From sequence record NC_049825.1: a stretch of 49,530 bases of DNA; one strand, given 5' to 3'. Origin of the DNA: Escherichia phage grams. The notes below the pieces were generated by a model that saw only the letters and a program-made list of their open reading frames with translations, was not told where the DNA came from and searched no databases. Shown here piece after piece: positions 357 through 47,089 of the stretch. The position numbers were made by a program, and so were the translations under genes. Positions within the stretch are counted from its first letter, which is position 1. Every line of letters begins with the position of its first letter.

Positions 357-402
357 ATTATGCCAGGCTTTTACACCTGGCTTTTAACAAAAAGTGCTAT
401 TT
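357..402 (-). promoter_or_regulatory. conserved 22-bp element plus -10 (CATAAT), leftward
   Basis: AAATAGCACTTTTTGTTAAAAG-N18-CATAAT on minus strand; spacer CCAGGTGTAAAAGCCTGG is a hairpin-forming dyad; stop codon of methyltransferase gene lies inside element. Confidence 0.55.
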
Positions 403-3134: not shown

Positions 3135-3786
3135 GCCTACTGGTCATTATTCCATCTATTCCATTAATCAGGAATAACAGGAATAACTCATTCGCGATCA
3201 CCTGGATTGTGAGACTTTGAGTTTGGTCAATTTTAATCAGTTGATTAACTTTTTGTGTGGAGGGGATAGAGAAACGCGGCCCTCTTGCGTCCTTTCCAGC
3301 AATCCTGGCGCGCGCATCTGTTATTTCTGTTCCCCGCGTTATCTCAATCAAGCCTCCGCACTTTGAGATAACGCAATCAGCGTTCATAAACAAAAAGAAC
3401 AAAATAAAATTTATATATATACACATAAAATCAATAAGTTAGTTATATATGTATTTATATTTGTTATTTACTGTTATGCTTGTTCTGTGGGTATATGGTA
3501 GTGTGGTATTGTTTTTGGTGATATGTATGTGTGGTTGTATACTTTTTAATCAATGGTAATGCGTGGTGATTTTTGTATGTATATATATGGGGTGGCGGCA
3601 ATCCTCCGTCAACCAGGTTAACAAGGTCATTTTTATCTGTTAAACCAATAACTTAACTTGTGCATTTTGTTATCTTTAAACGCGCCACACGCCAAAAGTC
3701 GTTATTAAAACACAAAATATATTGACATGTAGGAAAGGCAAGGCAATAATGCATCCAGTTTAAACGCAACAAAAGGAGTAGATGCC
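3135..3786. repeat. AT-rich non-coding region A (diverged paralogue of 32268..32692)
   Basis: No convincing ORF; shares AATCAATAAGTTAGT, GGTGATTTTT and TTTTGTTATCT blocks with region B. Confidence 0.6.
3722..3750 (+). promoter_or_regulatory. canonical sigma70 promoter (candidate early promoter)
   Basis: TTGACA-N17-AATAAT, about 36 bp upstream of ATG 3787. Confidence 0.6.
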
Positions 3787-6331: not shown

Positions 6332-6543
6332 TTGTGACGCACGATGTAGAGCCAGGCGCGAGCACTGCGCAGGACATGGTTTCCGGAATGACGCCAAAAT
6401 CGCACAGAATGGTACGCGTGCGCGGTTATAGCTTCAATGTCTCCCAAACACTCAAGGAGATCTTGGCCTTGCCAGAAGTAGATACAGCTCTTGTGGGTGT
6501 GCATACAAACGAATATGTTTCTTTCCACATTGTGACGAAATAG
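6328..6543 (+). CDS. hypothetical protein (71 aa)
   Basis: ORF; ATGA overlap with upstream gene. Confidence 0.5.
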   Translation: MIVTHDVEPGASTAQDMVSGMTPKSHRMVRVRGYSFNVSQTLKEILALPEVDTALVGVHTNEYVSFHIVTK

Positions 6544-7254: not shown

Positions 7255-7845
7255 ATGAAACGCGACATTATCATCCTTAACGGACCGCCAGGAGTTGGCA
7301 AGGATACGCTTGCGGCATACTTAACGGGCCATCGTTACGCAGCCGTTAAAGCGTCGTTTAAACAGCCTATGTTTGATATTGCGTTTTCCATGCTTGGCGT
7401 TTACCGATATGACGAGTTCATTGATCTGTATAACGACCGCGAGCAGAAAGAAAAGCCTCAAGCAATCTTGCAAGGCAAGTCGCCTCGCCAGTTCATGATC
7501 TGGATTAGCGAAGAAGTTATGAAGCCAGCTTTTGGTGAGCAATATTTCGGAAATCGCATGGTTGAGCAAGTACACGAGATGTACAGAGATTTAGCTGTTG
7601 TAATTAGTGATGGCGGATTCCCTGAAGAAATCAAGTCGCTAGTTAAGGCAGGCCATGAAGTGCATATTTGCCGACTGCATCGCGAAGGCTTCACGTTTGA
7701 TGGCGATTCACGAAACTATATTGACCTGAGCGGATACCATCACCGAGTAAAACATTACGACTTCACGATGATTGATGGCGATCCAGAAAAGACTGTTGAC
7801 GAGATCATCAAAACTGTCCAGTGGCAACACATCAAGATCAAATAG
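7255..7845 (+). CDS. deoxynucleoside monophosphate kinase-like P-loop kinase
   Basis: Walker A LNGPPGVGKDT; blocks YAAVKASFKQPMFDIAFSMLGV and VISDGGFPEEIKSLVKAGHEVHICRL recalled as similar to T4 gp1 dNMP kinase. Confidence 0.55.
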   Translation: MKRDIIILNGPPGVGKDTLAAYLTGHRYAAVKASFKQPMFDIAFSMLGVYRYDEFIDLYNDREQKEKPQAILQGKSPRQFMIWISEEVMKPAFGEQYFGNRMVEQVHEMYRDLAVVISDGGFPEEIKSLVKAGHEVHICRLHREGFTFDGDSRNYIDLSGYHHRVKHYDFTMIDGDPEKTVDEIIKTVQWQHIKIK

Positions 7846-8317: not shown

Positions 8318-8435
8318 CAACAACGCAACCAATCCTAAGCCACCGTTTGATTTTCATGAAATCATGATTGTGTTATTCTTGATTCTCTTAGTTATTTATT
8401 CAGTGAGGGCCGCACTATGGTTTTTAACGCACTAA
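8304..8435 (+). CDS. small membrane protein (43 aa)
   Basis: MLGNNNNATNPKPPFDFHEIMIVLFLILLVIYSVRAALWFLTH; weak RBS; overlaps end of upstream gene. Confidence 0.3.
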   Translation: MLGNNNNATNPKPPFDFHEIMIVLFLILLVIYSVRAALWFLTH

Positions 8436-11846: not shown

Positions 11847-13414
11847 TGCTGATTTGGGAAGACTTAACAGCGGCGCAGAAACGCGCCGTTAAGGAAATGA
11901 GCGAATATTCATTCGAAAAGATGATCCGCATTTGGTTTCAATTATTGCAAGGTCAGAAATTCTTAGGAAACTGGCATTTCAGCTACCTATGTAGCGAAGT
12001 TGAAAAAATCATCAAAGGCGAGTCACAGAACGTAATTTTCAACATAACGCCAGGCAGCGGTAAAACAGAGATATTCTCGATCCATATGTCACCTTATGCG
12101 TCATTGAAAAGTAAGAAGGTGCGAAATCTTAATCTTTCGTTTAGTGATGGCCTTGTCCAGCAGAATAGTAACCGAATTAAGGAGATTATTGGTTCTCCAG
12201 AATGGCAGGAGCTATGGCCAGGAAAGCTGGCAAAGGCGAGCGCAAAGGATTTGATTGTAACCGATGGCGGCAAGGTTAAGTTACAAGTTAACTCGCGTTC
12301 TATCGGTGGTCAGGTTACTGGTCTGCGTGGCGGCTACATGGACGATGGATTTACTGGTATGCTGGTTCTTGATGATCCAGACAAGCCGGATGACATGCTT
12401 TCTAAGGTGAAGCGCGAAGCCGGACACATGCGCCTAAAGAACACGGTGCGATCGCGTCGAATGAAGGACACAACGCCCATCGTAATGGTCCAGCAACGGC
12501 TACACGTCAATGATTCAACATGGTTCATGACAAACGGCGGCATGGGCGGCATACAGTTTAAGGTGGTTAGTATTCCGGCGCTCGTTACTAAGGAATATCG
12601 CGAAACGCTTCCTGATTGGTTAAAGCCTGAGTTTGATCGCGATGTTTTGTCCAGTAAGCCAGTGATGATTGATGGAGTTGCTCATTATTCATTCTGGCCT
12701 GCTAAGGAAAGCGCGGAGGAATTGCTTGCGCTTCGAAATGCTGATCCGTACACGTTCGCTAGTCAGTATCAGCAACAGCCTGTTGCGCTTGGCGGTAACG
12801 TGTTTAAAACAGAGTGGTTTCAGTATTACGGCAGCAGCGAGAAATGCACGCTACCAAAACCGGATCGCTTTGAATATACATTTATCACGGTTGATACCGC
12901 ACAGAAAACAGGGGATCTTAACGACTACTCCGTGATCTGTTATTGGGGGATGTATAAAGATCGCGTTTACTTCATTGATGGTGTTCGCGGAAAATGGGAA
13001 GCACCAGACCTTGAGACTAATTTTGTTGCGTTCGTTAATCAGTGCTGGAAGCGCAATAAAGAATGCGGAACGTTGCGAAGGATTCATGTTGAAGATAAAT
13101 CGTCTGGCACTGGTTTGATTCAGAGTGCAGCGAAAAAAATAATGATCAAGATCAATCCCGTTCAGCGCGATAAAGACAAGGTTACTCGTGCAATGGACGC
13201 AGCGCCAGTAATGCGCGCCGGACGCGTAGCACTTCCAGAATCGCATCCTATGCTGGCTGAGATACTCGCTGAAGTTGCGGCGTTTACATTCGATGATTCG
13301 CATCCTCATGATGATATTGTTGATAACATCATTGATGCGGTTAACATTGAAATGAACATGGCAGATGATCCGGTAGGAAGAATGAAAAAATTGGCAGGTT
13401 TGCGGAACAAATAG
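11846..13414 (+). CDS. terminase large subunit
   Basis: 522 aa; P-loop ITPGSGKTE; N-terminal ATPase and C-terminal nuclease-sized domains; position before portal. Confidence 0.8.
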   Translation: MLIWEDLTAAQKRAVKEMSEYSFEKMIRIWFQLLQGQKFLGNWHFSYLCSEVEKIIKGESQNVIFNITPGSGKTEIFSIHMSPYASLKSKKVRNLNLSFSDGLVQQNSNRIKEIIGSPEWQELWPGKLAKASAKDLIVTDGGKVKLQVNSRSIGGQVTGLRGGYMDDGFTGMLVLDDPDKPDDMLSKVKREAGHMRLKNTVRSRRMKDTTPIVMVQQRLHVNDSTWFMTNGGMGGIQFKVVSIPALVTKEYRETLPDWLKPEFDRDVLSSKPVMIDGVAHYSFWPAKESAEELLALRNADPYTFASQYQQQPVALGGNVFKTEWFQYYGSSEKCTLPKPDRFEYTFITVDTAQKTGDLNDYSVICYWGMYKDRVYFIDGVRGKWEAPDLETNFVAFVNQCWKRNKECGTLRRIHVEDKSSGTGLIQSAAKKIMIKINPVQRDKDKVTRAMDAAPVMRAGRVALPESHPMLAEILAEVAAFTFDDSHPHDDIVDNIIDAVNIEMNMADDPVGRMKKLAGLRNK

Positions 13415-13440
13415 CACGAATCGACAAACCAATATATAAT
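13409..13440 (+). promoter_or_regulatory. degenerate copy of conserved element
   Basis: AAATAGCACGAATCGACAAACC followed directly by TATAAT and then a terminator hairpin; architecture differs from other copies. Confidence 0.3.
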
Positions 13441-15530: not shown

Positions 15531-16643
15531 ATGAAGGCAAAACAAAGATTTGATAGCGTCCAGGTTAAGGCGCATTTTGATGATAATGGCTTTTTAGTGG
15601 ATCGCCCAATTGTGGCGCGAATTGGTTTGCAGGAGTACCGCACACCGTATGGAATCAGACGAGAGTTCCGACCAGCGTCAGAGGTGTTTAAGGCTGATTC
15701 GCTTGCTACGTTCGCAGGCAAGCCGATCACTATCGGTCACGTCACGGTAACGCCAGACAATGCGGATCAGGTTGTTGTTGGTTCATGCGCTGGCGCTGGT
15801 GTTCCAAATGGGATTGGCGTTGAAGTTCCGTTAAGCATTTACTCAAAGCGAGCAATTGAGAGTGCAAAAAAGAAAGACACGGCGGAAATTTCAGTTGGTT
15901 ACACATCGGTTGATATTGACAAGCCAGGCTGGGGTAATAATAAAACTGGTGATTACTTGTTTGAGGAAGACCTCAAGGAAGACTGGAAGCCTGATTCTTC
16001 TGATTGGGTTAAATTTGACGCCATTCAGACGAATATCCGTGTTAATCACATTGCACTTGTCTTTCGTGGTCGTGCTGGCATTGCCAAATTAAATCTTGAT
16101 AGTGAACAGGATTTTCCGTATAGTGACGAGGTTCTAAATGACAAAGGAGATGAGGAAATGACAGTAAAAATTAAACTTGATGGCGCGGTAGAATTTGATG
16201 TTCCAAAGGCCGTTGCTGATCATATTGAGGCGTTAAAGGCAGATGCAAAAGCTGCAACCGAAAAAGCTGATGGCCTTGAGGCAGAGCGCGACGCCCTGAA
16301 AACTAAAGTCGATGGCATTCCGGCGCAGATTGCAGAAGCTGTTAAGAAGGCAAAGACTGACGCAGAAGAACACGCCAAGCTGGTTGCAGATGCAACTGAA
16401 ATTGGCATCAAGTGTGACGGATTGGACGCTAAAGCGATCAAGGTTGCTTACGTCAAAGAAGTCACTGGCGCTGATATTTCAGAAAAAGCCGATGCATATA
16501 TTGAAACAGCTTTTGACCTTGCGAAGCAGTCTGATAAAATGGCGGCGCAGCGTAAATCTGTTAAGGGCGATTCTTTCGAATCTGGCAAGAGTGAAAAAAC
16601 CGACTCCCTTGATCCGACTGCGCGTTTGAAAAAACTTAAATAA
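15531..16643 (+). CDS. scaffolding / prohead core protein (putative)
   Basis: 370 aa with long C-terminal coiled-coil-like Ala/Lys/Glu-rich region; position between portal-associated gene and capsid genes. Confidence 0.5.
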   Translation: MKAKQRFDSVQVKAHFDDNGFLVDRPIVARIGLQEYRTPYGIRREFRPASEVFKADSLATFAGKPITIGHVTVTPDNADQVVVGSCAGAGVPNGIGVEVPLSIYSKRAIESAKKKDTAEISVGYTSVDIDKPGWGNNKTGDYLFEEDLKEDWKPDSSDWVKFDAIQTNIRVNHIALVFRGRAGIAKLNLDSEQDFPYSDEVLNDKGDEEMTVKIKLDGAVEFDVPKAVADHIEALKADAKAATEKADGLEAERDALKTKVDGIPAQIAEAVKKAKTDAEEHAKLVADATEIGIKCDGLDAKAIKVAYVKEVTGADISEKADAYIETAFDLAKQSDKMAAQRKSVKGDSFESGKSEKTDSLDPTARLKKLK

Positions 16644-17213: not shown

Positions 17214-17648
17214 ATGAGTGATTATTCAGTCATTGTTGGCGCTGAGTCGCCAGGGTGCATGGTCGATTCTTCAATAATGGTGATTAACGGATCTTTCGTG
17301 TGCGGAGATGAATTTATTGCGCCAGGTAAGATTGTGCGACTATCACATATAATAAATGGATACAAAATAGCAAGTGTTAATGGGGATCTTGTTATTGGCG
17401 TGGCAGTAAGGCCGCCGGACTCGTGCATATATGAGGAGGGTGATCCCGTTAATGTGGTTAGTAGAGGTAGTGTGTGGTGCTTAACTTCTGAGAGCGAAGC
17501 GCCAGAATATGGAGATAAAGTATTTGTAACGCAAGATGGAGATGCGGCATACAGTGAAGGCGACTTGCTGAGCGGTTGGATCTTTACTGGCGAACATGTA
17601 AAGGTTGATCATGATTCATATATTGTCGGGGTAAGCATTAGCGCATAA
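17214..17648 (+). CDS. capsid-associated protein, paralogue 2
   Basis: 144 aa; paralogous to 16656..17168. Confidence 0.4.
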   Translation: MSDYSVIVGAESPGCMVDSSIMVINGSFVCGDEFIAPGKIVRLSHIINGYKIASVNGDLVIGVAVRPPDSCIYEEGDPVNVVSRGSVWCLTSESEAPEYGDKVFVTQDGDAAYSEGDLLSGWIFTGEHVKVDHDSYIVGVSISA

Positions 17649-17665
17649 CACAAAATTATGTTGCA

Positions 17666-17687
17666 CGTTTAACAAAAAATGCTATCA
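17666..17687 (-). promoter_or_regulatory. conserved element in orientation opposite to flanking late genes
   Basis: Plus strand reads GTTTAACAAAAAATGCTATCA; no well-spaced -10 on minus strand. Confidence 0.35.
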
Positions 17688-17731
17688 TTGTGGCGTTACA
17701 TACTAACAGCCTTTATATATGGAGGGAGAAA

Positions 17732-18706
17732 ATGGAAAAAGAAAAATTTGATCAGCTAGATGCGGATATTGTTTCTAGCTATCTGGCTACTCGCGGCGTT
17801 AAGGGTGATGCTTCTGATATGGGTATCTGGACGGCGCAAGAGCTTCACAAGATCCGCTCAACTGCTTACGAGAAAGAATATCCGGCAGGTTCAGCGCTTC
17901 GTGTATTCCCTGTAACTAATGAGCTTTCTGATACTGATAAGACTTTTGAATATCAGATGTTTGACAAGGTTGGTTACGCAAAAATTATCGCTGATTACAC
18001 CGACGATCTGCCGACCGTTGACGCGCTGATGTCCAGCGAATTTGGTAAAGTGTTCCGCTTGGGTAACGCGTTCTTGATCTCCATTGACGAAATCAAGGCT
18101 GGTCAGCGCACTGGTAAGAGCCTTTCCACTCGCAAGGCAAACGCAGCGCAAAACGCTCATGATCAGGAAGTTAACCGCCTGGTGTTTAAGGGTTCAAAGC
18201 CGCATAAGATTCTTTCGGTGTTTGAGCACCCTAACCTGACAAAGATCGTGTCAACTGGCTGGTTAAGTGCTGATGAAAACACTAAGTTCCCGCAGGCAGC
18301 ATCTGATGAACTGGAAAAGGCTATTGAAACCATTCAGACCATCACCAATGGTCAGCACCGCGCAACCAATATCCTGATTCCGCCGTCTATGCGCAAGGTT
18401 CTTTCCGTTCGAATGGAAAACACCACTGAAAGTTATCTGGAATACTTCCAGAAACAAAACAGCGGAATCACCATTGACTCAATCGCAGAGCTTGAGGATA
18501 TTGACGGCACAGGAACGAAAGGTTGTCTGGTATATGAGAAAGACCCGATGAACATGTCGATCGAAATTCCAGAAGCATTTAACATGCTTCCTGCGCAACC
18601 AAAAGATCTGCATTTCAAAGTTCCGTGTACTTCAAAATGTACTGGCCTGACGATTTACCGTCCGTTTACGCTAGTGCTTATTACTGGCTTGAAAAAATCA
18701 GGTTAA
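17732..18706 (+). CDS. major capsid protein (putative)
   Basis: 324 aa; strong RBS GGAGGGAG; position after scaffold and before head-tail genes. Confidence 0.6.
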   Translation: MEKEKFDQLDADIVSSYLATRGVKGDASDMGIWTAQELHKIRSTAYEKEYPAGSALRVFPVTNELSDTDKTFEYQMFDKVGYAKIIADYTDDLPTVDALMSSEFGKVFRLGNAFLISIDEIKAGQRTGKSLSTRKANAAQNAHDQEVNRLVFKGSKPHKILSVFEHPNLTKIVSTGWLSADENTKFPQAASDELEKAIETIQTITNGQHRATNILIPPSMRKVLSVRMENTTESYLEYFQKQNSGITIDSIAELEDIDGTGTKGCLVYEKDPMNMSIEIPEAFNMLPAQPKDLHFKVPCTSKCTGLTIYRPFTLVLITGLKKSG

Positions 18707-18762: not shown

Positions 18763-19035
18763 ATGGCTAAAGAAAAAACTGTAACGCTAAAGGTTTCCGG
18801 CGTGTGCCTTATCATTGTTGATGGTGAGCATTATCATCCAGGCAAAGAGTTTGACGTAGAAGAATCAAAATTGAAAACAAGCGCGTTTGAATATCTAATT
18901 GCAAAAGGCGATCTGGAGGTTAAAGACAACTCCGCATTGAACGAAGAAATCAAACAGAGCGCAGCAAGCAAACGTAAAAAAGACCCGCGAGAGGGCAAGA
19001 GCAAAGCCGAACTTGAAGACGGCGGCATCTATTAA
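18763..19035 (+). CDS. hypothetical structural protein (90 aa)
   Basis: ATG with RBS GGAGG. Confidence 0.45.
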
Positions 19036-20696: not shown

Positions 20697-21359
20697 ATGC
20701 ATTTACCAAATGGATCGCAAATTTTCGTTGAGAGCAATCGCGGCAGCGAAATCCAAGCAACCGCAGTGTCAAACGCTAAAGATCCCGTTTTCACTGTTGC
20801 ATCTGGTGGCACTGCGTACAAGAAAGGCGATTATGTAATCATCACTGCATCCTCCTGGGGCAAGCTGATTGATCGTGTTATGCGTGTAAAGGCTAACGGT
20901 GAAGAAACAAGCGTAACTCTTGAGGGTGTTGATACTACCGATCAGAACGTGTTCCCGACTGGCGGCACTGCATCTTTTGCCAAGATTGATGCATGGACTG
21001 AGATCCCTTGCGTTCAGGATTTGTCGCAGGGCGGCGGAGAACAGCAATATTACACTTATCAGTGTTTGGCTGACGACCAGGAGCAGCAGTTACCTACCTA
21101 TAAGAGCGCGGTTTCTCTTACCTACACTTTTGCGCACGAATACGATAACGCGATCTATCCGTTACTTCGTGCAGCAGACGAATCCGGTGAAGTAACGGCG
21201 CTTCGCATGTATGTACCAAAAGCAAAAGAGATGCGTTGCTGGGCTGGTGTACTTTCGTTTAACGAGATCCCGCAAACGACCGTTAACGAAATGGAAACTG
21301 TTTCCCTGTCTGTATCCCTGAAAGGTCGATTCACCTTTCTACCTTCTCAAGTAGCATAA
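20697..21359 (+). CDS. major tail protein
   Basis: 220 aa; position before chaperone-frameshift-tape measure triad; followed by strong terminator. Confidence 0.6.
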   Translation: MHLPNGSQIFVESNRGSEIQATAVSNAKDPVFTVASGGTAYKKGDYVIITASSWGKLIDRVMRVKANGEETSVTLEGVDTTDQNVFPTGGTASFAKIDAWTEIPCVQDLSQGGGEQQYYTYQCLADDQEQQLPTYKSAVSLTYTFAHEYDNAIYPLLRAADESGEVTALRMYVPKAKEMRCWAGVLSFNEIPQTTVNEMETVSLSVSLKGRFTFLPSQVA

Positions 21360-21365: not shown

Positions 21366-21388
21366 GGGGCGTTGCGCCCCTTTTTTTG
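21366..21388 (+). terminator. intrinsic terminator
   Basis: GGGGCGTTGCGCCCC plus T7. Confidence 0.8.
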
Positions 21389-21401
21389 TTACTGTACAAT
21401 C

Positions 21402-21447
21402 ATGCTACACGATTCATAATCAATTCTTTTAACAAAAAGTGCTATCA
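21402..21447 (-). promoter_or_regulatory. conserved element plus -10 (TAGCAT) pointing leftward, antisense to late genes
   Basis: Minus-strand reading TGATAGCACTTTTTGTTAAAAG-N18-TAGCAT. Confidence 0.4.
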
Positions 21448-21458
21448 AGGAGAAAGAA

Positions 21459-21776
21459 ATGTCAAAAATGAAATTGACGATTGGGCCGCTTCCTGACTTT
21501 AAATTACCAGTGAAATTTGCAATGCCTAACGGAGAAGATCAAACAATTATCTTCACAGTTCGCCACCGCAAAACAAGTGAGATTCACGAGCGCTACACGT
21601 CAGATACTCCAATGAGCGATGTTGAAATGATTACCTTCCTTGCTTCCGGTTGGAATCTTGATGATGAATTTAACGAAGAAAATATTAAACAGCTTCTTGA
21701 TTACTACCCAGCAACAGCAATCGGATTAACTAGCGCATACATGAAAGCGCTTGCGGGGCAGCGAGTAAAAAACTAA
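21459..21776 (+). CDS. tail assembly chaperone (G-like)
   Basis: 105 aa; ends ...QRVKN stop with slippery AAAAAAC at 21767..21773. Confidence 0.7.
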   Translation: MSKMKLTIGPLPDFKLPVKFAMPNGEDQTIIFTVRHRKTSEIHERYTSDTPMSDVEMITFLASGWNLDDEFNEENIKQLLDYYPATAIGLTSAYMKALAGQRVKN

Positions 21777-27329: not shown

Positions 27330-27363
27330 TCAACAAATTAAATAGCACAAAAGGTGAAAAAGC

Positions 27364-30300
27364 ATGGCTGAAAATATGATAACTGGCAGTAAGGGTGGAT
27401 CATCAAAACCTTATGTTCCAAAAGAGATGGAAGATAACCTGATCTCAATCAATAAAATCAAAATCCTTCTTGCAGTTTCCGATGGCGAGTGCGATCCAGA
27501 TTTTACACTTCGCGATCTGTATCTTGATGATGTTCCGGTAATTGCAGACGACGGAACTGTTAACTACCAGGGTGTGAGCGCAGAGTTTCGCCCAGGCACA
27601 CAGACTCAAGATTACATCCAGGGATTTACTGACACATCAAGCGAAGTGACGCTGGCGCGTGATATTACTACGTCAAATCCTTATGTGATTTCCGTAACCA
27701 ACAAAACATTATCTGCTATCAGAATCAAAATGCTAATGCCAACAGGCATTAAGCAAGAGGATAACGGCGATCTTGTCGGCGTTAAGGTTACTTATGCTGT
27801 TGATATGGCTGTTGACGGAGACTCCTACAAAGAAGTATTGCGAGACACTATCGAAGGTAAAACTCGTTCCGGTTACGACAGAAGCAGAAGGATTGACCTT
27901 CCGTCATTCAATGATCGCGTATTACTTAGGGTTAGAAGGATTACGGCAGACAGCGCATCTTCTCGTGTTACTGATCTGATTAAGCTACAAAGTTACGCTG
28001 AGGTTATTGATGCAAAATTCCGTTATCCTCTGACTGGTCTTGTATACGTTGAATTTGACAGTGAGTTGTTTCCTAACCAGATCCCAAATATTTCAATCAA
28101 GAAAAAGTGGAAACTGATTAATGTACCAAGCAACTATGATCCTGTATCTCGAGAGTATAGAGGTTCATGGGATGGAACATTCAAAAAAGCCTGGTCAAAT
28201 AATCCAGCATGGGTGCTTTACGACATCATTACAAATCAGCGTTATGGATTAGATCAGAGAGAGCTTGGTGTACAGGTTGATAAGTGGAGTCTTTACGAAG
28301 CTGCGCAATACTGCGATCAGAAAGTTCCAGACGGAAAAGGAGGCACAGAGCCACGCTATCTATGTGATGTTGTTATCCAGAGTCAGATTGAGGCTTATCA
28401 GCTTATTCGTGACATTTGCTCTATCTTCCGTGGAATGAGCTTTTGGAATGGCGAGAGTTTGTCAATCGTTATTGATAAACCACGCGATCCATCTTACATC
28501 TTCACAAATGATAACGTTGTTGATGGTGATTTCCAGTATACGACGGCAAGCGAAAAGAGCATGTACACGCAGTGCAACGTGACGTTCGACGACGAACAAA
28601 ACATGTATCAACAGGACGTAGAGGGCGTATTCGACACCGAGGCAGCATTGCGCTTTGGATACAATCCTACAAGCATAACCGCGATCGGATGTACACGCAG
28701 GAGTGAGGCTAATCGGCGCGGTCGATGGATACTAAAAACCAACTTGCGCAGCACTACGGTAAACTTTGCTACTGGACTGGAAGGCATGATCCCATCAATA
28801 GGTGATGTGATTGCTATTGCTGACAATTTTCACAGCAGCAACCTTAAATTAAACCTATCAGGGCGCGTGATGGAAGTTTCCGGCTTGCAGGTGTTCGTTC
28901 CGTTTAAGATTGACGCGCGACCAGGTGATTTCATTATCATCAACAAGCCGGACGGAAAGCCAGTTAAGCGCACAATCTCAAAAGTAAGCGATGACGGAAA
29001 AACCATTGAGCTAAACATTGGGTTTGGGTTTGAAGTTAAGCCGGATACAGTTTTTGCAATCGACCGCACTGACATTGCGTTGCAGCAATATGTTGTAACG
29101 AGTATCGGAAAAGGTGATGATGATGATGAATTTACATACTCCATCACGGCTGTTGAATATGACCCTAACAAATACGACGAGATTGATTACGGAGTAAACA
29201 TTGACGACAGGCCAACTTCAATTGTCCAGCCTGACACGATGGCAGCACCGGAAAACGTGCAAATATCCTCATACTCGCGAATTGTCCAGGGTGCAAGCGT
29301 TGAAACAATGGTTGTGTCGTGGGATAAAGTACCTTACGCATCACTGTATGAAATGCAATGGCGAAAAGGTGATGGCAACTGGCTGAATACACCACAGACC
29401 GCAAACAAAGAAATTGAGGTTGAAGGTATTTATTCAGGAAACTACCAGGTAAGGGTTAGATCTGTTTCTGCTTCAGGTTCTACGTCTCCGTGGTCCAGAA
29501 TTGTGACAGCTTCACTGACTGGTAAGGTAGGAGAGCCAGGCGCGCCAGTTAACTTAACCGCATCCGACAATGAAGTTTTTGGCATTCGTGTTAAGTGGGG
29601 GATGCCAGAAGGGAGCGGAGACACGGCATACATTGAGCTTCATCAGTCGCCAGATGGAACGGCTGAAAACTCAAGCCTGCTAACGCTGATCCCGTATCCA
29701 CAATATGAATACTGGCATGGAACTCTTCCGGCTGGTCATGTTGTATGGTATCGGATCAGGAGCGTAGACAGGATCGGCAACGTTTCCGGTTGGACTGATT
29801 TTGTTAGAGGTATGGCTTCAGATGATGTGGAGGCTGTTTTAGGAGATATTCTTGATAAGATTTTTGATACTGAAGCAGGTCAGGATCTGAAAGAGAACGC
29901 CATTGACAGTGCAAACAAGATAAAGGACCAGGCGCAAGCAATCATCCAGAATGCTCTTGCTAATGATGCTGATATTAAGTGGACGCGAGTACAAAACGGA
30001 AAGAGAAAGGCTGAATATGGTCACGCTCTTGAGCTTATAGCCACAGAGACTGAGGCACGAGTTACGCAGATTGAAGAATTGAGGGCGTCAATCGACGAGG
30101 ATATTGTTTCAAGCATAAAGACAGTGCAGGAGGCTATTGCCACAGAATCTGAAACGCGAGCAACTCAAATAAACGCTTTGGATTCAAAATTTACAACTGA
30201 AATTGACGGTGTAAAACGCGATACAGCAGCAAGCATTAATCAGGTGAATCAAACAATTGCCAACGAATCTGAAGCGAGAGCGCAGGCCGTTAACGCTCTT

Positions 30301-32267: not shown

Positions 32268-32692
32268 TGTTCTTTTTGTTCTCCTGCGTTCTCAAATCTG
32301 CGGAGGCGTAAATTTAGAGCAAAAAGTGAGCAATAACAGAGCGCGATATATACAGATAAATATATATACATACATATAAATCAATAAGTTAGTAGTATAT
32401 ATATTAATGTTTGTTCTTTATTGTTATCTGTGTTTTGTGTGATTTTGTGTGCCTGGTGATTTTTCTGTGATTATGCATGTGTCAGTGGTTATGTGTGTCT
32501 ATATATCTATATCCGGCGCAAATTGAGGAACAAGAGAACAAAAAGACAACAAAGATATTTATCAATCACTTACATGTAAGTTTTGTTATCTAAGTTGGCG
32601 AGAACGTTGTTAAAACAGAAAAAACAAAATAACTATTGACTAAACGCATCAAATAGCTACAATGCAGGCATACCAACCAATGAGGGTAAATC
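32268..32692. repeat. AT-rich non-coding region B (diverged paralogue of 3135..3786)
   Basis: Shares AATCAATAAGTTAGT, GGTGATTTTT, TTTTGTTATCT and GTTGTTAAAAC blocks with region A. Confidence 0.6.
32636..32663 (+). promoter_or_regulatory. canonical sigma70 promoter (candidate early promoter)
   Basis: TTGACT-N16-TACAAT about 30 bp upstream of ATG 32693. Confidence 0.6.
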
Positions 32693-38796: not shown

Positions 38797-39729
38797 TTAG
38801 AGAAGTGATTCAGGCTTGAAAACCTTCCTCTCTATCCCTTGCCTGTAATTATCATTAATCGGCATCATAATTTCAAGTCCTCTTTCCTCGGCAGCAATGA
38901 TCGCGTCACGATCTGTGCTCTTACAGACAACTCGCATTCTTCTGTTGCCTTTATACCTGTAAGCTACAATCTCAATGTTAGTTGCATCAAAGCAGGCCCA
39001 AACCTCCTGACCAGTTGCAAGGTGAATATGTTGCGCATCAATCCAGTCAACGCAAAGATAGATAGTCTTATCTGTACTTCCGGTTCTAACAATCGACCCT
39101 CGCGTGTAGTCCTTTGCTAGAAAAGACTGATTACCTTCTTCATCAATGAAAAGCACATTGCACATTTCATCATCAATTTCATCTGAATGTACCAGGTAAC
39201 ATGGTAACGCGTGAATGTATCGACCATCTTTAACGCCGCATTCATAATAACCATCTTCAGGAGGATATATCCCTTCATAGGTGCTTAGCGGCGTGCGATC
39301 AAATTTTAGTGTTTTTGACATAACGCGCTCGCAGCATTCATGGCTTGCCTGTTTCCCGAACGAATAACCAGAATCACGAGATACTCGCTTATTTGCCTTG
39401 ATCCTATAGTCCTGCGGAACTTTTCCAAGAAATCGGCCCAAAATATTGATCACTTCGCTGTAAGGTTCTCCGGTTAGCTTCATGATCCAACCAATTCCGG
39501 TATCATTACCGCACACGTTGCAGATCGCACCGCCATCGCCTTTTTTATCGCCAAGTTTATCCGTCCATCTGAAGCGATCCTTTCCGCCGCAGTTGGGGCA
39601 AGATTGATGCTTGCCGTTAAAAACTTCATTTGGAAGACCGCAAATACTTTGTAGCGCCTCACGCCACAATCCTTGCATATATGGGAGAACATCTTCCTTT
39701 TGATAAACCATAAAGTTTTCGTTATTCAT
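38797..39729 (-). CDS. DNA primase (zinc-finger type)
   Basis: ATG at 39729 with RBS GAGGTG; [12 protein letters not shown]...CNVCG zinc-binding motif. Confidence 0.6.
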
Positions 39730-39783: not shown

Positions 39784-40257
39784 TTAGCAATTAGTGCTTT
39801 CAGGTTTATACAGGAATCCGCCAGGTTCATAATCTGACATTCTTACCACTCGCAACATTTCACGCTTATCACATCTCTTTGTGAGCGGTTTACCATTGGA
39901 ATCAAATCGCAGATCTGGACGGCAGAATGACGCGCGATAGCCTTGGCAGCCATATTTTTTGTAATCGTTATGCACCTTTTGAGCGCCAGCGGCTGAAATC
40001 ATACCGCGAACACGCCACTGATTTACAGTTTGCTGGCTAACGTTAAGACGTTTTGCCATTGCTGACACACTTCCGTAATACTCAATAAGGATATCAAGTC
40101 GCGCTTTTAGCCCGGCACGCACCTCATCTTTTAAAACATAGTATCCTGTAGGGCGCTTGCGCTTTTTCTTATCTTTACCCCGTCGAGTTCCGTTATTGCC
40201 ATTAATTGTGCGCTTGTCAATCTTTCCTGTTGATACTGCGATTCGCTGTTCTTTCAT
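39784..40257 (-). CDS. HTH DNA-binding regulator
   Basis: 157 aa; helix-turn-helix AKRLNVSQQTVNQWRVRG; basic N-terminal region; RBS GGAGAA. Confidence 0.6.
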   Translation of the reverse strand: MKEQRIAVSTGKIDKRTINGNNGTRRGKDKKKRKRPTGYYVLKDEVRAGLKARLDILIEYYGSVSAMAKRLNVSQQTVNQWRVRGMISAAGAQKVHNDYKKYGCQGYRASFCRPDLRFDSNGKPLTKRCDKREMLRVVRMSDYEPGGFLYKPESTNC

Positions 40258-40268
40258 TATTCATTCTC

Positions 40269-40314
40269 CAATAGCATTTTTTGTTAAACGATGATTTAAT
40301 GATTGTGTATTATA
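40269..40314 (+). promoter_or_regulatory. conserved element (variant) plus -10 (TATTAT) for helicase operon
   Basis: CAATAGCATTTTTTGTTAAACG-N17-TATTAT. Confidence 0.5.
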
Positions 40315-40336
40315 CACGCCAAATGGCATTACTCAA
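40309..40336 (-). promoter_or_regulatory. sigma70 promoter for regulator/primase operon
   Basis: Minus strand TTGAGT-N16-TATAAT with TG extension; -10 lies in near-palindrome GTGTATTATACAC. Confidence 0.5.
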
Positions 40337-40346
40337 AGGTTTTAGA

Positions 40347-42392
40347 ATGATTCCAAACATTGAAAAGCAAATATCAGCACTTGGTGAAGCGGTAATTAAA
40401 TCCATTCAGGAGCGATTCACTGTTGGCGAGATTGTGCCTTACCCTTACCAGTGCGTTGCATACGCTGAGATCGCAAAGCGCATGAAAAATTATGAGCATC
40501 CATTCTTTGTTAAAGCGTCCGTATCGGCTGGAAAAACATTGATGTTTGCAATGGTTGCTCACCAGTGCCGGAAAATGGGCTTGAAAATGATGGTCCTTGC
40601 TCGCCAGGCTGAGATTGTGGATCAGGATTCTGAAGAGATAACAAATCTTGGCGTGCCGAACTCCATCTATTGTGCAGGACTGAAGACAAAAAGCGCATAC
40701 TTTCCGATCGTTGTTGGTTCTGAGGGAACTGTAGTTAATGGACTGTTTAAAGCGCTTGGCGACTATGTTCCGCACGTTATCGGGATTGACGAGTGTCACC
40801 AGGTGGATTGGGAAGACCTTGCCGACGCCATAGAGAAAGACGAGTCATTTTTACAAATGACGACGAAGAAAGGCGAAAAAGTACCAAATCCAGATTATGA
40901 CATAACAAAGGGAAGCAGGAACAGAAATACAGAGTTCCTGATTGGTGAGGATGGCTTGCCAATGGAGGGAACAGGCCGCACGCAATACACTGTCATTATC
41001 ATGGAAATGATGCGACGTTGCAGGAAAGCATACGGTCATGAACTGCGCATCTTTGGTATGACTGGATCGGAGTTTCGCGGCGTAGTTCCAATACTGGTAG
41101 AAGATAAAAAGCAGAAAGGATTTTGGCGTGAACAGGTTACTAATATTGACACCAACTACCTAATCAAGTTCGGTTCTGTTGTTCCGACTAATTTTGGCGA
41201 CGTTGGCGATCTCGGGTATGACCTTTCAGAGTTTGAGGCATCCAGTGAGGATGGCGTTGCAGACTTTGACGCTAAAACGCTTCGTAGGATGGAACAAAAA
41301 ATTCATGAAGAAGCGACCATGACAAAGCGCATCATGGCGAAAGTGCACGAGATCTGTAAAAACCGTAACGGTGTACTTGTGACATGTGCAGGCGAAAGGC
41401 ACTGTAAAGAGGCAGCGGCAGCATTGCCGCCTGGAACGACTTACAGGATCATTACTGGTAAGACTGGCGATAACCAGCGCAAGGAGTGGTTGAAAGAAGC
41501 ATACGAGGGAAAGGTTAAATACATCTTCCAGGTGCAGGCGCTAACTACTGGCGTTAACGTGCCGTTTTGGGATACGTCTGTTATTCTGCGTAAGATTGGA
41601 TCTCTTACGTTGCTGATTCAGCTTTTAGGTCGCGGAATGCGACTACTTAAGAAGTGGCATAAGGAGCAAGGATTCCAGAAGGATGATCATCTAGTCATGG
41701 ATTTTTCAGGAACGATGGACGAGCTAGGGGAGCTTTATTTTGATCCGATACTGGAACAGGCGCAGCACCAGAAGCGATTTAGGAACGGTAAAGATCCGAA
41801 GCCTTGTCCTGTTTGCGGAACTCTTAACAGCTATTATGCTCGTCGTTGTATGAACGTAGATGAAAACGGCAACAGATGCGAGTGGTTCTTTAAATTCAGG
41901 ACATGTGATGATCAGATTGACCCGCGCACTAAAAAGATTATTCATCGCGGTTGCGGAACGAAGAATGATATTGCGGCCAGGGTATGCAGACATTGCGACA
42001 TGTCATTGATTGACCCTAACGAGAAGTTAAGCGGAAAGCACTACACAAAAAACGACTGGTTCCAAGTGCAATCTTTCGCGGTTGACATGACGAAAAACCA
42101 GAAAGGGATAATATTTAATTATGAGCTTTCCGATGGCATAGATACTTTCAAGGCGAGAGAGATATTTTTCCCTGAATCTGAAAGCCAAATTTGTCGCGCA
42201 AAATGGCGAAGCGTTGCTCTTAAGCACATACCAGATCGCCGTGTCGCTGGCATGGTCGCGAGCTATCGTAATGCACGTAAAATCATGCAATATGTGAATC
42301 ACATTATGCCACCATCGCGTGTGACTCACCGCAAGACGAGCAAGGGCGAAGATAATTTGTACAAGAAGGAATTTAATTATGGCAATGACTGA
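40347..42392 (+). CDS. superfamily 2 DNA helicase with C-terminal zinc ribbon
   Basis: Walker A SVSAGKTL, DECH box IGIDECHQV, motif VI QLLGRGMR; CxxC pairs near C-terminus; start at 40347 chosen for SD. Confidence 0.75.
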   Translation: MIPNIEKQISALGEAVIKSIQERFTVGEIVPYPYQCVAYAEIAKRMKNYEHPFFVKASVSAGKTLMFAMVAHQCRKMGLKMMVLARQAEIVDQDSEEITNLGVPNSIYCAGLKTKSAYFPIVVGSEGTVVNGLFKALGDYVPHVIGIDECHQVDWEDLADAIEKDESFLQMTTKKGEKVPNPDYDITKGSRNRNTEFLIGEDGLPMEGTGRTQYTVIIMEMMRRCRKAYGHELRIFGMTGSEFRGVVPILVEDKKQKGFWREQVTNIDTNYLIKFGSVVPTNFGDVGDLGYDLSEFEASSEDGVADFDAKTLRRMEQKIHEEATMTKRIMAKVHEICKNRNGVLVTCAGERHCKEAAAALPPGTTYRIITGKTGDNQRKEWLKEAYEGKVKYIFQVQALTTGVNVPFWDTSVILRKIGSLTLLIQLLGRGMRLLKKWHKEQGFQKDDHLVMDFSGTMDELGELYFDPILEQAQHQKRFRNGKDPKPCPVCGTLNSYYARRCMNVDENGNRCEWFFKFRTCDDQIDPRTKKIIHRGCGTKNDIAARVCRHCDMSLIDPNEKLSGKHYTKNDWFQVQSFAVDMTKNQKGIIFNYELSDGIDTFKAREIFFPESESQICRAKWRSVALKHIPDRRVAGMVASYRNARKIMQYVNHIMPPSRVTHRKTSKGEDNLYKKEFNYGND

Positions 42393-42798
42393 TAAAGGCG
42401 ATTATCTGGAGTTTTACGAAAGAGATCCGACAGATACGCTAAAAGAGGAATCTCACCAGATCGGGGCGTTTCAATGGTTAACTTATGCTCATCCTGAATT
42501 ACTGGCATGGCATACGAAAAACGAGGGCGACAAGGGGATCGCCACCGCAATGATGGATCAGCAAGCTGGGCTTGTTAAGGGCGTAAGTGATTTTATCATC
42601 CTGATTGGATTAAAAGGTCGTTACCCGTTCGCGGCAATTGAGATGAAGCGCGTCAATAAGTCCGGCAAGGGTAAGGCTTCACCAGTCAGCAAGGACCAAA
42701 AAGCCTTCTTGCGTCGTGTGCGTGAGCTTGGCGGATTCGCTGCCGTAACATACGGATATAAGCAATTCATGATCGCGGTAGAATACATGATGAAATAG
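42379..42798 (+). CDS. VRR-NUC domain nuclease
   Basis: 139 aa; SDFIILIG...AIEMK block fits PD-(D/E)XK of VRR-NUC; overlaps helicase stop. Confidence 0.55.
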   Translation: MAMTDKGDYLEFYERDPTDTLKEESHQIGAFQWLTYAHPELLAWHTKNEGDKGIATAMMDQQAGLVKGVSDFIILIGLKGRYPFAAIEMKRVNKSGKGKASPVSKDQKAFLRRVRELGGFAAVTYGYKQFMIAVEYMMK

Positions 42799-42838
42799 CA
42801 CTTTTTGTTAAAACAGGCGCGAAGGATTGCGCCATAAT
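42793..42838 (+). promoter_or_regulatory. conserved 22-bp element plus -10 (CATAAT)
   Basis: AAATAGCACTTTTTGTTAAAAC-N18-CATAAT; spacer contains GGCGC...GCGCC dyad; stop TAG inside element. Confidence 0.55.
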
Positions 42839-43578: not shown

Positions 43579-43836
43579 ATGCAGAAAGAAAGAAGAGTTT
43601 TACTTAATGAAGATGGCGAATTTCTTTTGTATCGCGCTATGGTATGCGATGCACTTGATAAAAACCCTAACGTGAAAAAGATGATTGATTGCGATCCGTG
43701 GGAATTTTCAAGCGCATTAGATATGAGCTTTGAGGAGACAAAAAAACTCCCGCTTGAAAAATGGCACGAACAAATCAGAAATGACATGCAAGAATTTGTC
43801 GATTCTTGGAATTTTAAGAACGGAATGATCCACTAA
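43579..43836 (+). CDS. hypothetical protein (85 aa)
   Basis: Internal ATG of track ORF with RBS GGAGC. Confidence 0.45.
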   Translation: MQKERRVLLNEDGEFLLYRAMVCDALDKNPNVKKMIDCDPWEFSSALDMSFEETKKLPLEKWHEQIRNDMQEFVDSWNFKNGMIH

Positions 43837-43879
43837 TAGCACTTTTTGTTAAAACGCCCGGCCTTGTGTCGGGCATAAT
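43834..43879 (+). promoter_or_regulatory. conserved 22-bp element plus -10 (CATAAT)
   Basis: TAATAGCACTTTTTGTTAAAAC-N18-CATAAT; spacer GCCCG...CGGGC dyad; stop TAA inside element. Confidence 0.55.
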
Positions 43880-43911
43880 TATTTCATCAAAACGAACAAG
43901 AGGAAAACAAA

Positions 43912-47006: not shown

Positions 47007-47043
47007 GATGTTTTCCTTCTGGTCGTTTCGTTTCGATGAAACA

Positions 47044-47089
47044 AATATACCCGATACGAGATCGGGTGTTTTAACAAAAAGTGCTATTC
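47044..47089 (-). promoter_or_regulatory. conserved 22-bp element plus -10 (TATATT), leftward
   Basis: GAATAGCACTTTTTGTTAAAAC-N18-TATATT; spacer CCCGAT...ATCGGG dyad. Confidence 0.55.

What the first reader, a model, noticed from the sequence alone, without database searches (positions are those of the whole stretch)
21366..21447. Conserved element pointing antisense to the late genes, between major tail protein and chaperone genes
At 21426..21447 the element is in the orientation used by minus-strand genes, although all surrounding genes are on the plus strand. Read on the minus strand it has the standard architecture (element-N18-TAGCAT, -10 at 21402..21407) and would direct transcription leftward into the hairpin at 21366..21380 and then antisense to the major tail protein gene. 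That would give either a short antisense RNA or transcriptional interference with late expression.
Basis: inference. Interest (0 to 1): 0.5.

Follow-up and report, generated by a model that had tools for sequence, protein, structure and literature searches.

The report
Backward promoter cassette in T1-like tail genes
Between the tail-tube gene and the tail-chaperone gene of this T1-like phage sits a complete, evolutionarily conserved copy of the phage family's repeated promoter cassette pointing the wrong way, with no gene to drive, which most likely throttles or times the downstream tail genes; no transcript has been measured.

Summary
The window is a T1-like phage (Drexlerviridae, Hanrivervirus). 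Positions 21427-21447, read on the minus strand, are an exact copy of the family's known 21-nt repeat (aaATAGCACnnnTTGnTAAAA; function listed as an open question in 2024). About 16 other copies point with their genes and are followed 19 nt later by a -10 hexamer. This copy is reversed and has TAGCAT at that spacing.

Comparison supports a selected antisense promoter. In 27 distinct orthologous spacers (Tunavirus T1, Hanrivervirus, Warwickvirus) the T-12, A-11 and T-7 positions are invariant. TGn precedes the hexamer in 24 of 27, though not in this window's clade. The spacing never changes while the spacer sequence drifts. Lineages without the repeat lack the hexamer. No conserved ORF lies downstream, and the hairpin is not a conserved antisense terminator.

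Three points are new:
- The repeat core is an inverted repeat (TAGCA-N5-TGyTA) centred at about -42.
- The antisense -10 lies 1 nt from a family-wide rightward -10 (TACAAT, 21395-21400), so RNA polymerase cannot occupy both.
- The other reversed copy (17668) instead forms the spacer of the major capsid promoter.

The most likely role is polymerase competition or antisense interference with the chaperone and tape-measure genes. Transcription itself is untested.

The parts
21366..21387 (+). Intrinsic terminator of the major tail (tube) protein gene: stem GGGGCG/CGCCCC, loop TTG, then seven T.
   Evidence: called on the plus strand only. The hairpin is conserved in all 60 related loci. T1 annotates the equivalent site at 18770-18796.
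21372..21377 (+). Weak candidate -35 (TTGCGC, only TTG matches) of a rightward promoter, lying in the terminator loop and 3' arm, 17 nt upstream of TACAAT.
   Evidence: The loop TTG is kept in every lineage although the stems differ. It matches only 3 of 6 positions, so the scan tool does not call it. Inference.
21395..21400 (+). Rightward -10 hexamer TACAAT (family pattern TAnAAT or CATAAT). The predicted plus-strand start is near 21407.
   Evidence: T, A, A, A and T are invariant in 27 of 27 repeat-bearing sequences. The hexamer is also present at the same place in lineages without the repeat (TAATAT, CATAAT, TATCAT). Activity is not tested.
21402..21407 (-). Leftward -10 hexamer TAGCAT of the reversed module. 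The predicted minus-strand start is A at 21395.
   Evidence: It lies 19 nt from the 21-mer, as in forward modules. T-12, A-11 and T-7 are kept in 27 of 27 sequences while the middle bases vary across nine hexamer variants. TGn lies upstream in 24 of 27; the window has GTG. The hexamer is absent where the repeat is absent.
21408..21426 (.). 19-nt spacer between the -10 and the repeat. Its length is invariant and its sequence is free.
   Evidence: The alignment is gap-free, with information content mostly below 0.8 bit per column. In the window's clade only, the spacer carries CATAAT (21415-21420), which the scan tool pairs with TGTACA (21393-21398) as a second rightward promoter-like site.
21427..21447 (-). 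21-nt Drexlerviridae repeat, minus strand tgATAGCACTTTTTGTTAAAA. Its core is the inverted repeat TAGCA-N5-TGTTA (21430-21444, centre 21437), which is -42 from the predicted leftward start and about +31 from the predicted rightward start.
   Evidence: The consensus aaATAGCACnnnTTGnTAAAA comes from PMC11447400. It is invariant or nearly so in 27 orthologues.
21447..21461 (+). Shine-Dalgarno AAGGAG (21447-21452) and the ATG (21459-21461) of the tail assembly chaperone gene (21459-21776).
   Evidence: Pfam Phage_TAC_4, E = 1.8e-31. The distance from the repeat to the Shine-Dalgarno varies between lineages, from about 1 to 9 nt.

Best explanation
This is a full, selectively maintained copy of the portable promoter cassette of T1-like phages, placed backwards in the late operon with no gene behind it.

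The cassette has three parts: an operator-like inverted repeat (TAGCA-N5-TGyTA inside the 21-nt repeat), a 19-nt spacer, and a sigma-70 -10 hexamer. There is no -35. That geometry puts the repeat centre at about -42, the position used by class II activators. Polymerase is therefore probably recruited by a dimeric DNA-binding protein. The phage's Cro-like regulator (39784-40257, minus strand) is the obvious but untested candidate.

At this locus the cassette would start transcription leftward at about 21395. Its -10 (21402-21407) lies 1 nt from the -10 (21395-21400) of a rightward promoter that restarts transcription after the tail-tube terminator. The two predicted starts are about 12 bp apart, so polymerase can occupy only one orientation at a time.

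The likely effect is negative control of the chaperone, tape-measure and downstream tail genes, relative to the very abundant tail-tube protein. Three routes are possible: competition with the rightward promoter, blocking of terminator read-through, and head-on antisense transcription into the end of the tail-tube gene.

Shown here: the anatomy, the conservation pattern, and the absence of a coding target. Inferred: that either promoter fires, that a protein binds the repeat, and the direction of the regulatory effect.
For: - The copy matches the repeat exactly and is reversed.
- In the window and in T1, about 30 forward copies carry a -10-like hexamer at N19 (plus or minus 1), scoring in the top 1-5% of genome background. 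They lie just upstream of co-directional genes. Rtp shows the same.
- In 27 distinct orthologous spacers, T-12, A-11 and T-7 are 100% conserved with variable middle bases. TGn is present in 24 of 27. There are no indels from terminator to repeat, and the spacer sequence is variable.
- The module is present in Tunavirus, Hanrivervirus and Warwickvirus. Tlsvirus, Webervirus, Vilniusvirus and P-K7R lack both the repeat and the hexamer.
- The rightward TAnAAT is conserved in every lineage, with or without the repeat.
- The core is an inverted repeat, perfect (TGCTA) in 15 of 42 copies, and its centre falls at -42.
- The same pairing occurs where both directions have genes. A canonical minus promoter, TTGAGT-16-TATAAT (10 of 12), for the regulator gene shares its -10 region with a forward cassette that drives the helicase gene.
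- Experiments in E. coli show that activating one direction of such overlapping divergent promoters represses the other by steric competition between polymerases (PMC12825309).
- No conserved antisense ORF exists downstream.
Against: - No 5'-end or strand-specific RNA data exist for any T1-like phage, so neither promoter is demonstrated.
- In this window's clade the extended -10 is missing (GTG) and TAGCAT is among the weaker hexamers.
- The rightward promoter has only TTG as a -35 (3 of 6) and is not called by the scan tool.
- The invariant T and A at 21406-21407 could instead mark the rightward start site.
- Close relatives and whole genera do without the module, so it is not essential.
- In Rtp the same kind of cassette, pointing forwards, drives genes inside the late region. 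The cassette is therefore not simply an 'early' signal, which weakens any timing argument.
- The binding protein is unknown.
Confidence: 0.45

Rival explanations
1. The repeat acts here only as an operator. A repeat-binding protein sits at about +31 of the rightward transcript, just before the chaperone Shine-Dalgarno, and blocks or modulates elongation or initiation ('stoperator'-like). The leftward -10 is not used.
For: - The core is nearly palindromic, so binding would not depend on orientation.
- Other late-region copies lie next to start codons without any -10: 27342-27359 before the J-like tail gene, T1 8362 before the small terminase gene, and 13411 at the portal junction.
- The reversed copy at 17668 lies inside the major capsid promoter with no conserved minus-strand hexamer.
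- A stoperator idea was raised for these repeats in PMC11447400.
Against: - It does not explain why T-12, A-11, T-7 and TGn are kept exactly 19 nt away in 27 sequences.
- It does not explain why they vanish with the repeat, or why the spacing to the left is fixed while the spacing to the Shine-Dalgarno varies.
- In E. coli, a DNA-bound activator downstream did not hinder polymerase transit (PMC12825309).
Confidence: 0.2
2. The module is an evolutionary remnant of a small gene cassette (promoter plus accessory gene) once inserted backwards at this junction. It has no present function.
For: - Cassettes of this type accompany inserted genes in late regions. In Rtp they precede rtp34 at this very junction, plus two HNH genes.
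- The module is dispensable in several genera.
- There is no coding target.
Against: A decaying remnant should lose its -10 and its repeat in some lineages. Instead the functional positions are invariant across lineages whose tail-tube proteins are only 66-70% identical, while neighbouring spacer bases are scrambled.
Confidence: 0.12
3. The reversed repeat is part of a rightward promoter, read as an extended -10 (TGcTATCAA), like the reversed copy in front of the major capsid gene.
For: At 17668 the reversed repeat forms the 16-nt spacer, the TG and the start of the -10 (TATCAT) of a plus-strand promoter. That promoter has a -35 of TTGCAC in the window and TTGACC or TTGACG in distant lineages, in every lineage examined.
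Against: - At the tail junction there is no -35 at the right place (CAATTC, ATTAAC, ATCCAC, ACCGCG).
- The hexamer lacks T-7 (TATCAA, TATTTA, TATCGG, TATAAG).
- The start would fall inside or after the Shine-Dalgarno.
Confidence: 0.05
4. The leftward promoter primes DNA replication, like the T4 origins ori(uvsY) and ori(34) (recalled from memory, not looked up), where a middle-type promoter with no coding role makes an R-loop primer.
For: It is a promoter without a gene inside a late region, and the origin of T1-like phages is unmapped (PMC11447400 found no iterons).
Against: - There is no long AT-rich unwinding element downstream; the transcript runs at once into a GC hairpin.
- GC skew simply follows gene direction, with no change near 21.4 kb.
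- The module is absent from whole genera.
Confidence: 0.04

Closest known systems
21-nt intergenic direct repeats of T1-like phages (TLS DR1-DR18; PMC11447400, 2024)
   Same: It is the same sequence family (aaATAGCACnnnTTGnTAAAA), also reported in T1, Rtp and Rogue1, with function unknown.
   Different: - The repeats are described there as lying in the direction of transcription, about 76 nt upstream of start codons. This copy is reversed and has no downstream gene.
- TLS itself lacks a copy at this junction.
- That paper suggests stoperator, enhancer or UP-like roles. It does not mention the fixed N19 -10, the inverted-repeat core or the -42 geometry.
Lambda PaQ (cII-dependent antisense promoter inside the late regulator gene Q); from my own knowledge
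   Same: An activator-type promoter of the same class as the phage's other regulated promoters is placed antisense in the late pathway, with no coding product, and acts negatively on late expression.
   Different: PaQ belongs to a lysogeny decision and targets a regulator. Here the phage is virulent, the target is a structural gene junction, and the activator is unidentified.
Bidirectional (overlapping divergent) promoters of E. coli (PMC12825309 and the earlier work it cites)
   Same: Two -10 elements lie on opposite strands with starts about 10-23 bp apart and mutually exclusive polymerase binding. Activating one direction represses the other.
   Different: Here the two hexamers are adjacent (1-nt gap, predicted starts about 12 bp apart) rather than sharing one pseudo-symmetric -10. 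One direction has no gene. The regulator/helicase pair at 40302-40320 is the textbook 18-bp type.
Class II activator-dependent promoters (CRP at -41.5; lambda cI at OR2 for PRM, centre -42); from my own knowledge
   Same: A dyad-symmetric site is centred at about -42, overlapping the place of a missing or poor -35, and is combined with a normal -10.
   Different: No activator has been identified, no contact with polymerase has been shown, and the repeat has asymmetric A-rich flanks.
Mycobacteriophage L5 stoperators (cited in PMC11447400)
   Same: Many copies of a short asymmetric site lie in intergenic spaces, mostly in one orientation relative to transcription.
   Different: Stoperators block elongation through a prophage repressor and are not coupled to a -10 at a fixed distance. 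T1-like phages are virulent.

Membership tests
Drexlerviridae 21-nt direct repeat (PMC11447400) | Matches the consensus aaATAGCACnnnTTGnTAAAA | tested here: met
   The minus strand of 21427-21447 reads tgATAGCACTTTTTGTTAAAA, so all upper-case consensus positions match.
Drexlerviridae 21-nt direct repeat (PMC11447400) | Intergenic location | tested here: met
   It lies between the tail-tube gene (stop at 21359) and the chaperone gene (start at 21459).
Drexlerviridae 21-nt direct repeat (PMC11447400) | Oriented with transcription, about 76 nt upstream of a start codon | tested here: not met
   It is reversed relative to all surrounding genes, and no conserved minus-strand ORF lies downstream.
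Sigma-70 promoter | -10 hexamer with A at -11 and T at -7 | tested here: met
   The hexamer is TAGCAT at 21402-21407 (minus strand). T-12, A-11 and T-7 are kept in 27 of 27 orthologues.
Sigma-70 promoter | -35 hexamer 16-18 nt upstream | tested here: not met
   The -35 position falls on the AAAA end of the repeat. The same holds in all forward cassettes.
Sigma-70 promoter | Extended -10 (TGn), which can replace a -35 | tested here: inconclusive
   The window and its clade have GTG (3 of 27), whereas 24 of 27 relatives have TGA or TGG.
Sigma-70 promoter | A transcript starts there | not testable with these tools
   No transcriptome of a T1-like phage was found.
Class II activator-dependent promoter | Dyad-symmetric site centred near -41.5 | tested here: met
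   The centre of TAGCA-N5-TGTTA is at 21437, which is -42 from the predicted start at 21395. This depends on a predicted start, not a measured one.
Class II activator-dependent promoter | A known activator binds the site and contacts polymerase | not testable with these tools
   The only candidate is the 157-aa Cro/YdaS-like HTH protein. Its Pfam hits fall just below the cut-off, and it matches PHROG 2856 'transcriptional regulator'.
Bidirectional promoter (PMC12825309) | Opposed -10 elements with divergent starts about 10, 18 or 23 bp apart | tested here: inconclusive
   The predicted starts are 21407 (plus) and 21395 (minus), 12 bp apart. The hexamers are adjacent rather than shared, and both starts are predicted only.
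Bidirectional intrinsic terminator | Hairpin followed by a U-tract on both strands | tested here: not met
   The terminator is called on the plus strand only. The minus-strand tail is UUGUGAUUAU in the window and U-poor in most lineages.
Known RNA family (Rfam 15) | Score reaches the family's gathering threshold | tested here: not met
   There are only two sub-threshold hits on the terminator hairpin: 24 bits against 50, and 21 against 60.

The most novel reading that the evidence does not exclude
The 21-nt repeat is the operator of the phage's Cro-like regulator, and together they form a genome-wide programme that runs on unmodified host polymerase.

The regulator gene has one of the few canonical sigma-70 promoters in the genome. 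The regulator would do the following:
- Switch on about 15 -35-less cassette promoters from position -42.
- Shut off its own promoter by polymerase competition at the shared -10 (40302-40320).
- Sit in the spacer of the major capsid promoter (17668).
- Fire a gene-less decoy promoter against the tail-gene restart promoter (this finding).

One protein would therefore both drive the cassette genes and hold back two key structural gene promoters until it is diluted or titrated by replicating genomes. That would answer the published open question about these repeats.
Probability: 0.25. Interest if true: 0.7.

Novelty: new variant of a known kind. Interest (0 to 1): 0.5.

Why it matters
T1 is one of the classic coliphages and a notorious laboratory contaminant, yet how it times gene expression with host polymerase alone is unknown. 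The 2024 TLS reannotation lists the function of the 21-nt repeats as an open question.

This copy is informative because it is an exception: the same cassette, reversed, gene-less, and still under selection. Together with its fixed-distance -10, its palindromic core at -42 and its collision with a rightward promoter, it turns a vague 'repeat of unknown function' into a specific hypothesis. That hypothesis is cheap to test with 5'-end mapping, one footprint and two point mutants. It would also give a natural example of a promoter kept only to compete with another.

If it is wrong, the result is still a corrected annotation: not all repeats follow transcription, and the two reversed ones are different devices.

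Tried and rejected
- **Literature for the literal sequence.** Searching either strand gave 0 papers. The repeat was found instead through the TLS paper.
- **Genome papers.** The Rtp 2006 genome paper is not held. I did not try to retrieve the T1 2004 genome paper. So I cannot exclude that a reversed copy was mentioned in either.
- **Transcriptome data for T1-like phages.** None was found.
- **Hidden antisense gene.** The window has a 59-aa GTG ORF (21155-21334, minus strand) with a Shine-Dalgarno-like AGAAGG. It is not conserved: three repeat-bearing lineages have no ORF of 35 aa or more, and the others differ in frame and position. Rejected.
- **Short RNA ending at the hairpin.** The hairpin folds well on the minus strand (80-nt fold -26.5 kcal/mol, z = -3.4). 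However, no conserved U-tract follows it.
- **RNA structure in the chaperone 5' leader.** Not significant (z = -0.15).
- **Rfam.** Nothing reached threshold.
- **Plus-strand extended -10 reading (TGcTATCAA).** Rejected for this copy but true for the copy at 17668.
- **Sigma-54 resemblance** (TGGCAC-N5-TTGC against TAGCAC-N3-TTGy). The spacing is 2 bp too short and GG is replaced by AG. Rejected by inspection.
- **Matches to E. coli factor sites recalled from memory** (IHF, Fis, CRP, FNR, ArcA, Lrp). None was convincing, and they were not pursued.
- **GC skew as a sign of an origin.** Uninformative, because it follows gene direction.
- **My first reading of TTGCGC and TTGCAC as 4 of 6 matches to -35.** This was wrong; both match 3 of 6.

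Full report
**What the window is**

The 1.4 kb around the finding is 96-98% identical to Hanrivervirus phages of the Drexlerviridae, such as haarsle, SFP17 and pSf-1. The finding lies in the 99-nt gap between two genes:
- the major tail (tube) protein gene, 20697-21359 (Pfam Phage_tail_3, E = 8.6e-64);
- the tail assembly chaperone gene, 21459-21776 (Phage_TAC_4, E = 1.8e-31).

**Check of the observation**

Every stated feature is present:
- The hairpin GGGGCG-TTG-CGCCCC is at 21366-21380, followed by seven T.
- ATGCTA at 21402-21407 reads TAGCAT on the minus strand.
- The element at 21426-21447 is an exact match to the window's consensus.

The 22-mer with up to 3 mismatches occurs 12 times against 0.00 expected. 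A looser pattern gives 20 copies. Against the ORF map, 18 of the 20 point with the local genes. The two exceptions, 17668-17685 and 21428-21445, both lie in the plus-strand late operon.

**The element is already known**

A 2024 reannotation of phage TLS (PMC11447400) describes a 21-nt direct repeat, aaATAGCACnnnTTGnTAAAA.
- The repeat is also seen in T1, Rtp and Rogue1.
- The authors offer stoperator, enhancer or UP-like roles, and list its function among the open questions for T1-like phages.
- Their Table S1 shows one negative-strand copy (DR7) inside the positive-strand late region, without comment. It is the counterpart of window copy 17668.
- TLS has no copy at the tail-tube/chaperone junction.

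**Anatomy of the normal (forward) copies**

In the window, in T1 (NC_005833) and in Rtp (NC_007603), the repeat is the first part of a fixed cassette:
- the repeat, ATAGCAC-N4-TG-N-TAAAA;
- 19 nt (plus or minus 1) of spacer;
- a -10-like hexamer (TATAAT, TATAGT, CATAAT, TATTAT, and others);
- 5 nt;
- a CATCGAAACGA-like motif;
- a Shine-Dalgarno and then the ATG.

With an approximate -10 matrix (frequencies from my own memory), about 30 forward copies in the window plus T1 score in the top 1-5% of genome background at that offset. No -35 is present: the only TTG lies 22 nt from the hexamer. Weak hexamers tend to carry an extended -10 (TGn).

The conserved core is an inverted repeat, TAGCA-N5-TG(C/T)TA, and it is perfect in 15 of 42 copies. 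Counting from the hexamer, its centre falls at -42. From established knowledge of class II promoters (CRP at -41.5, lambda cI at OR2 for PRM), this is the geometry of an activator-dependent promoter. That is an inference, because no protein has been tested.

**The reversed copy has the same anatomy**

Read on the minus strand, this copy is ATAGCACTTTTTGTTAAAA, then 19 nt, then TAGCAT, then gattg, then TACAG. The predicted start is A at 21395. TAGCAT is a weak member of the set (4.1 bits, background tail 0.036). The same hexamer serves a forward T1 cassette at 40308.

**Comparative evidence**

I fetched 62 loci around tail-tube protein homologues, plus named genomes.
- The reversed copy is present, in the same orientation, in 32 of the viral-contig loci. 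With the window and T1 these give 27 distinct sequences. Their tail-tube proteins range from 99% down to 66% identity with the window's.
- It occurs in Tunavirus (T1, 18833-18850), Hanrivervirus and Warwickvirus.
- From terminator to repeat the alignment is free of gaps.
- On the minus strand, T-12, A-11 and T-7 are invariant (27 of 27), while the two middle bases vary. There are nine hexamer variants.
- TGn precedes the hexamer in 24 of 27. The three exceptions are the window's own clade, which has GTG.
- The 14 or so spacer columns between hexamer and repeat carry little information.
- The distance from the repeat to the chaperone Shine-Dalgarno varies.
- Lineages without the repeat (Tlsvirus U136B and YSP2, Webervirus, Vilniusvirus, P-K7R) also lack the hexamer.

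This pattern is what selection on a -10 element looks like. It is hard to reconcile with a relic or with a bare protein-binding site.

**What lies downstream of the leftward start**
- No conserved ORF follows. The window's 59-aa antisense ORF is absent or shifted in relatives.
- The hairpin folds on the minus-strand RNA. However, the following tail is U-poor in most lineages, and the scan tool calls no minus-strand terminator.
- A discrete short RNA is therefore not a conserved product.

**A second, rightward promoter overlaps it**

In every lineage, with or without the repeat, the terminator's T-run is followed by cTG-TAnAAT. The window has TACAAT at 21395-21400, and other lineages have TAAAAT, TAGAAT, TAATAT or CATAAT. 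The hairpin loop always contains TTG 16-17 nt upstream. I read this as a restart promoter for the chaperone and tape-measure genes, with a predicted start near 21407.

The evidence is conservation only. The -35 matches 3 of 6 positions, and the scan tool does not call it. In the window's clade the tool does call a different rightward site, TGTACA-16-CATAAT (21393-21420).

The leftward -10 (21402-21407) lies 1 nt from the rightward -10. The predicted starts are about 12 bp apart and divergent, so the two polymerase footprints overlap almost completely.

**A parallel elsewhere in the window**

The Cro/YdaS-like regulator gene (39784-40257, minus strand) is preceded by a canonical minus-strand promoter, TTGAGT-16-TATAAT (10 of 12). 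Its -10 (40309-40314) overlaps the plus-strand -10 TATTAT (40308-40313) of a forward cassette that drives the helicase gene. This is the 18-bp bidirectional geometry. T1 has the same arrangement by inspection.

Work in E. coli (PMC12825309) reports the following:
- Divergent starts 18, 10 or 23 bp apart are common.
- Basal activity causes little interference between the two directions.
- Activating one direction represses the other through steric competition between polymerases.

**The other reversed copy is a different device**

Across 76 loci around major capsid homologues, the reversed repeat at 17668 is part of a plus-strand promoter for the capsid gene:
- an A-tract;
- a -35 of TTGCAC or TTGAAC (TTGACC or TTGACG in distant lineages);
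- a 16-nt spacer made of the repeat;
- TG, then TATCAT, TATATT or TATTCT.

The minus-strand hexamer at N19 is not conserved there (TATGCG, TATTGG, TATATC, TTAGGC, TTAGCA, GTAGGG). 'Reversed' therefore does not mean the same thing at the two sites.

**The cassette is portable**

In Rtp, a forward cassette sits at this same junction and drives an inserted gene, rtp34. Others precede inserted HNH genes in the late region. This weakens any simple equation of the cassette with 'early', and it makes a remnant origin plausible. The conservation above still argues for a present function.

**Most likely mechanism**

The copy is a gene-less antisense cassette promoter, probably dependent on a repeat-binding dimer. 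It competes with the rightward restart promoter, stands in the path of terminator read-through, and may send polymerase head-on into the end of the tail-tube gene. The net effect would be to lower or delay expression of the chaperone and tape-measure genes relative to the tail-tube protein.

I put about 0.75 on 'selected promoter-like module', about 0.35-0.4 on the specific regulatory effect, and 0.45 overall. The rivals are operator only, relic, plus-strand promoter and origin primer; the evidence for each is given in the rival-explanations section.

**Novelty**

The repeat family is known. The following appear undescribed in the literature I could search:
- a reversed, gene-less copy that is conserved;
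- the N19 -10 architecture;
- the inverted-repeat core at -42;
- the overlap with a rightward promoter.

The Rtp 2006 paper was not available to me, and I did not try to retrieve the T1 2004 genome paper. The kind of device has precedents: a phage antisense promoter (lambda PaQ) and bidirectional promoter competition. I therefore rate it a new variant of a known kind, of moderate interest.

Noticed in passing
window 17640-17760 (repeat at 17665-17686, minus orientation): The other reversed repeat forms the spacer and extended -10 of a plus-strand promoter for the major capsid gene: ACACAAAA, then TTGCAC, 16 nt, TGc and TATCAT. This holds in all 76 related loci (TTGACC or TTGACG in distant ones). 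If a protein binds the repeat, it would sit on the core of this promoter.
   Followed up: yes
window 40257-40345: A canonical minus-strand promoter for the Cro-like regulator gene (TTGAGT-16-TATAAT, 10 of 12) and the forward cassette promoter for the helicase gene share one -10 region (40308-40314). The predicted starts are 18 bp apart. The reversed repeat then lies in the regulator's 5' leader, just before its Shine-Dalgarno.
   Followed up: partly
window 27340-27364, window 13409-13429, and L064 (T1) 8362-8396: Forward repeat copies in the late operon have no -10 at N19. They lie next to, or contain, the Shine-Dalgarno of the J-like tail gene (window 27340), sit at the large terminase/portal junction (window 13409), or precede the small terminase gene (T1). 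They look like bare binding sites rather than promoters.
   Followed up: partly
forward cassettes, e.g. window 357-402, 42793-42838, 43835-43896, 47027-47088; T1 38953-39001, 39976-40024, 41956-42007: The 19-nt spacer between repeat and -10 often holds a GC-rich hairpin, and the -10 plus downstream T's serve as its U-tail. T1's annotated terminators fall exactly there. One 60-nt unit therefore ends the upstream transcript and starts the next.
   Followed up: partly
many copies, e.g. window 397-399, 6541-6543, 7843-7845, 13412-13414, 42796-42798: The TAG inside ATAGCAC, or a TAA just before it, is the stop codon of the preceding gene. Coding sequence therefore runs right into the repeat.
   Followed up: no
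about +1 to +12 of forward cassettes (window, T1, Rtp): A conserved CATCGAAACGA-like motif follows the -10 by 5 nt, at the predicted transcript start. Its role is unknown; it could be a start-site context, a leader or a processing signal.
   Followed up: no
L146/L149 (Rtp) 16270-16380: Rtp carries a forward cassette (ATAGCACTTTTTGCTAAAG, then N19, TATATT and TATCGAAACGAA) at the same tail-tube junction. It drives an extra gene, rtp34, inserted before the chaperone gene.
   Followed up: partly
window 3428-3532 and 32378-32482: A 105-nt direct repeat (72% identity) lies in the two AT-rich regions where gene direction switches. These may hold the first promoters used after infection.
   Followed up: no
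window 21393-21420: A rightward promoter-like site specific to the window's clade, TGTACA-16-CATAAT (9 of 12), has its -10 inside the spacer of the antisense cassette. The same clade has lost the TGn of the antisense -10.
   Followed up: partly
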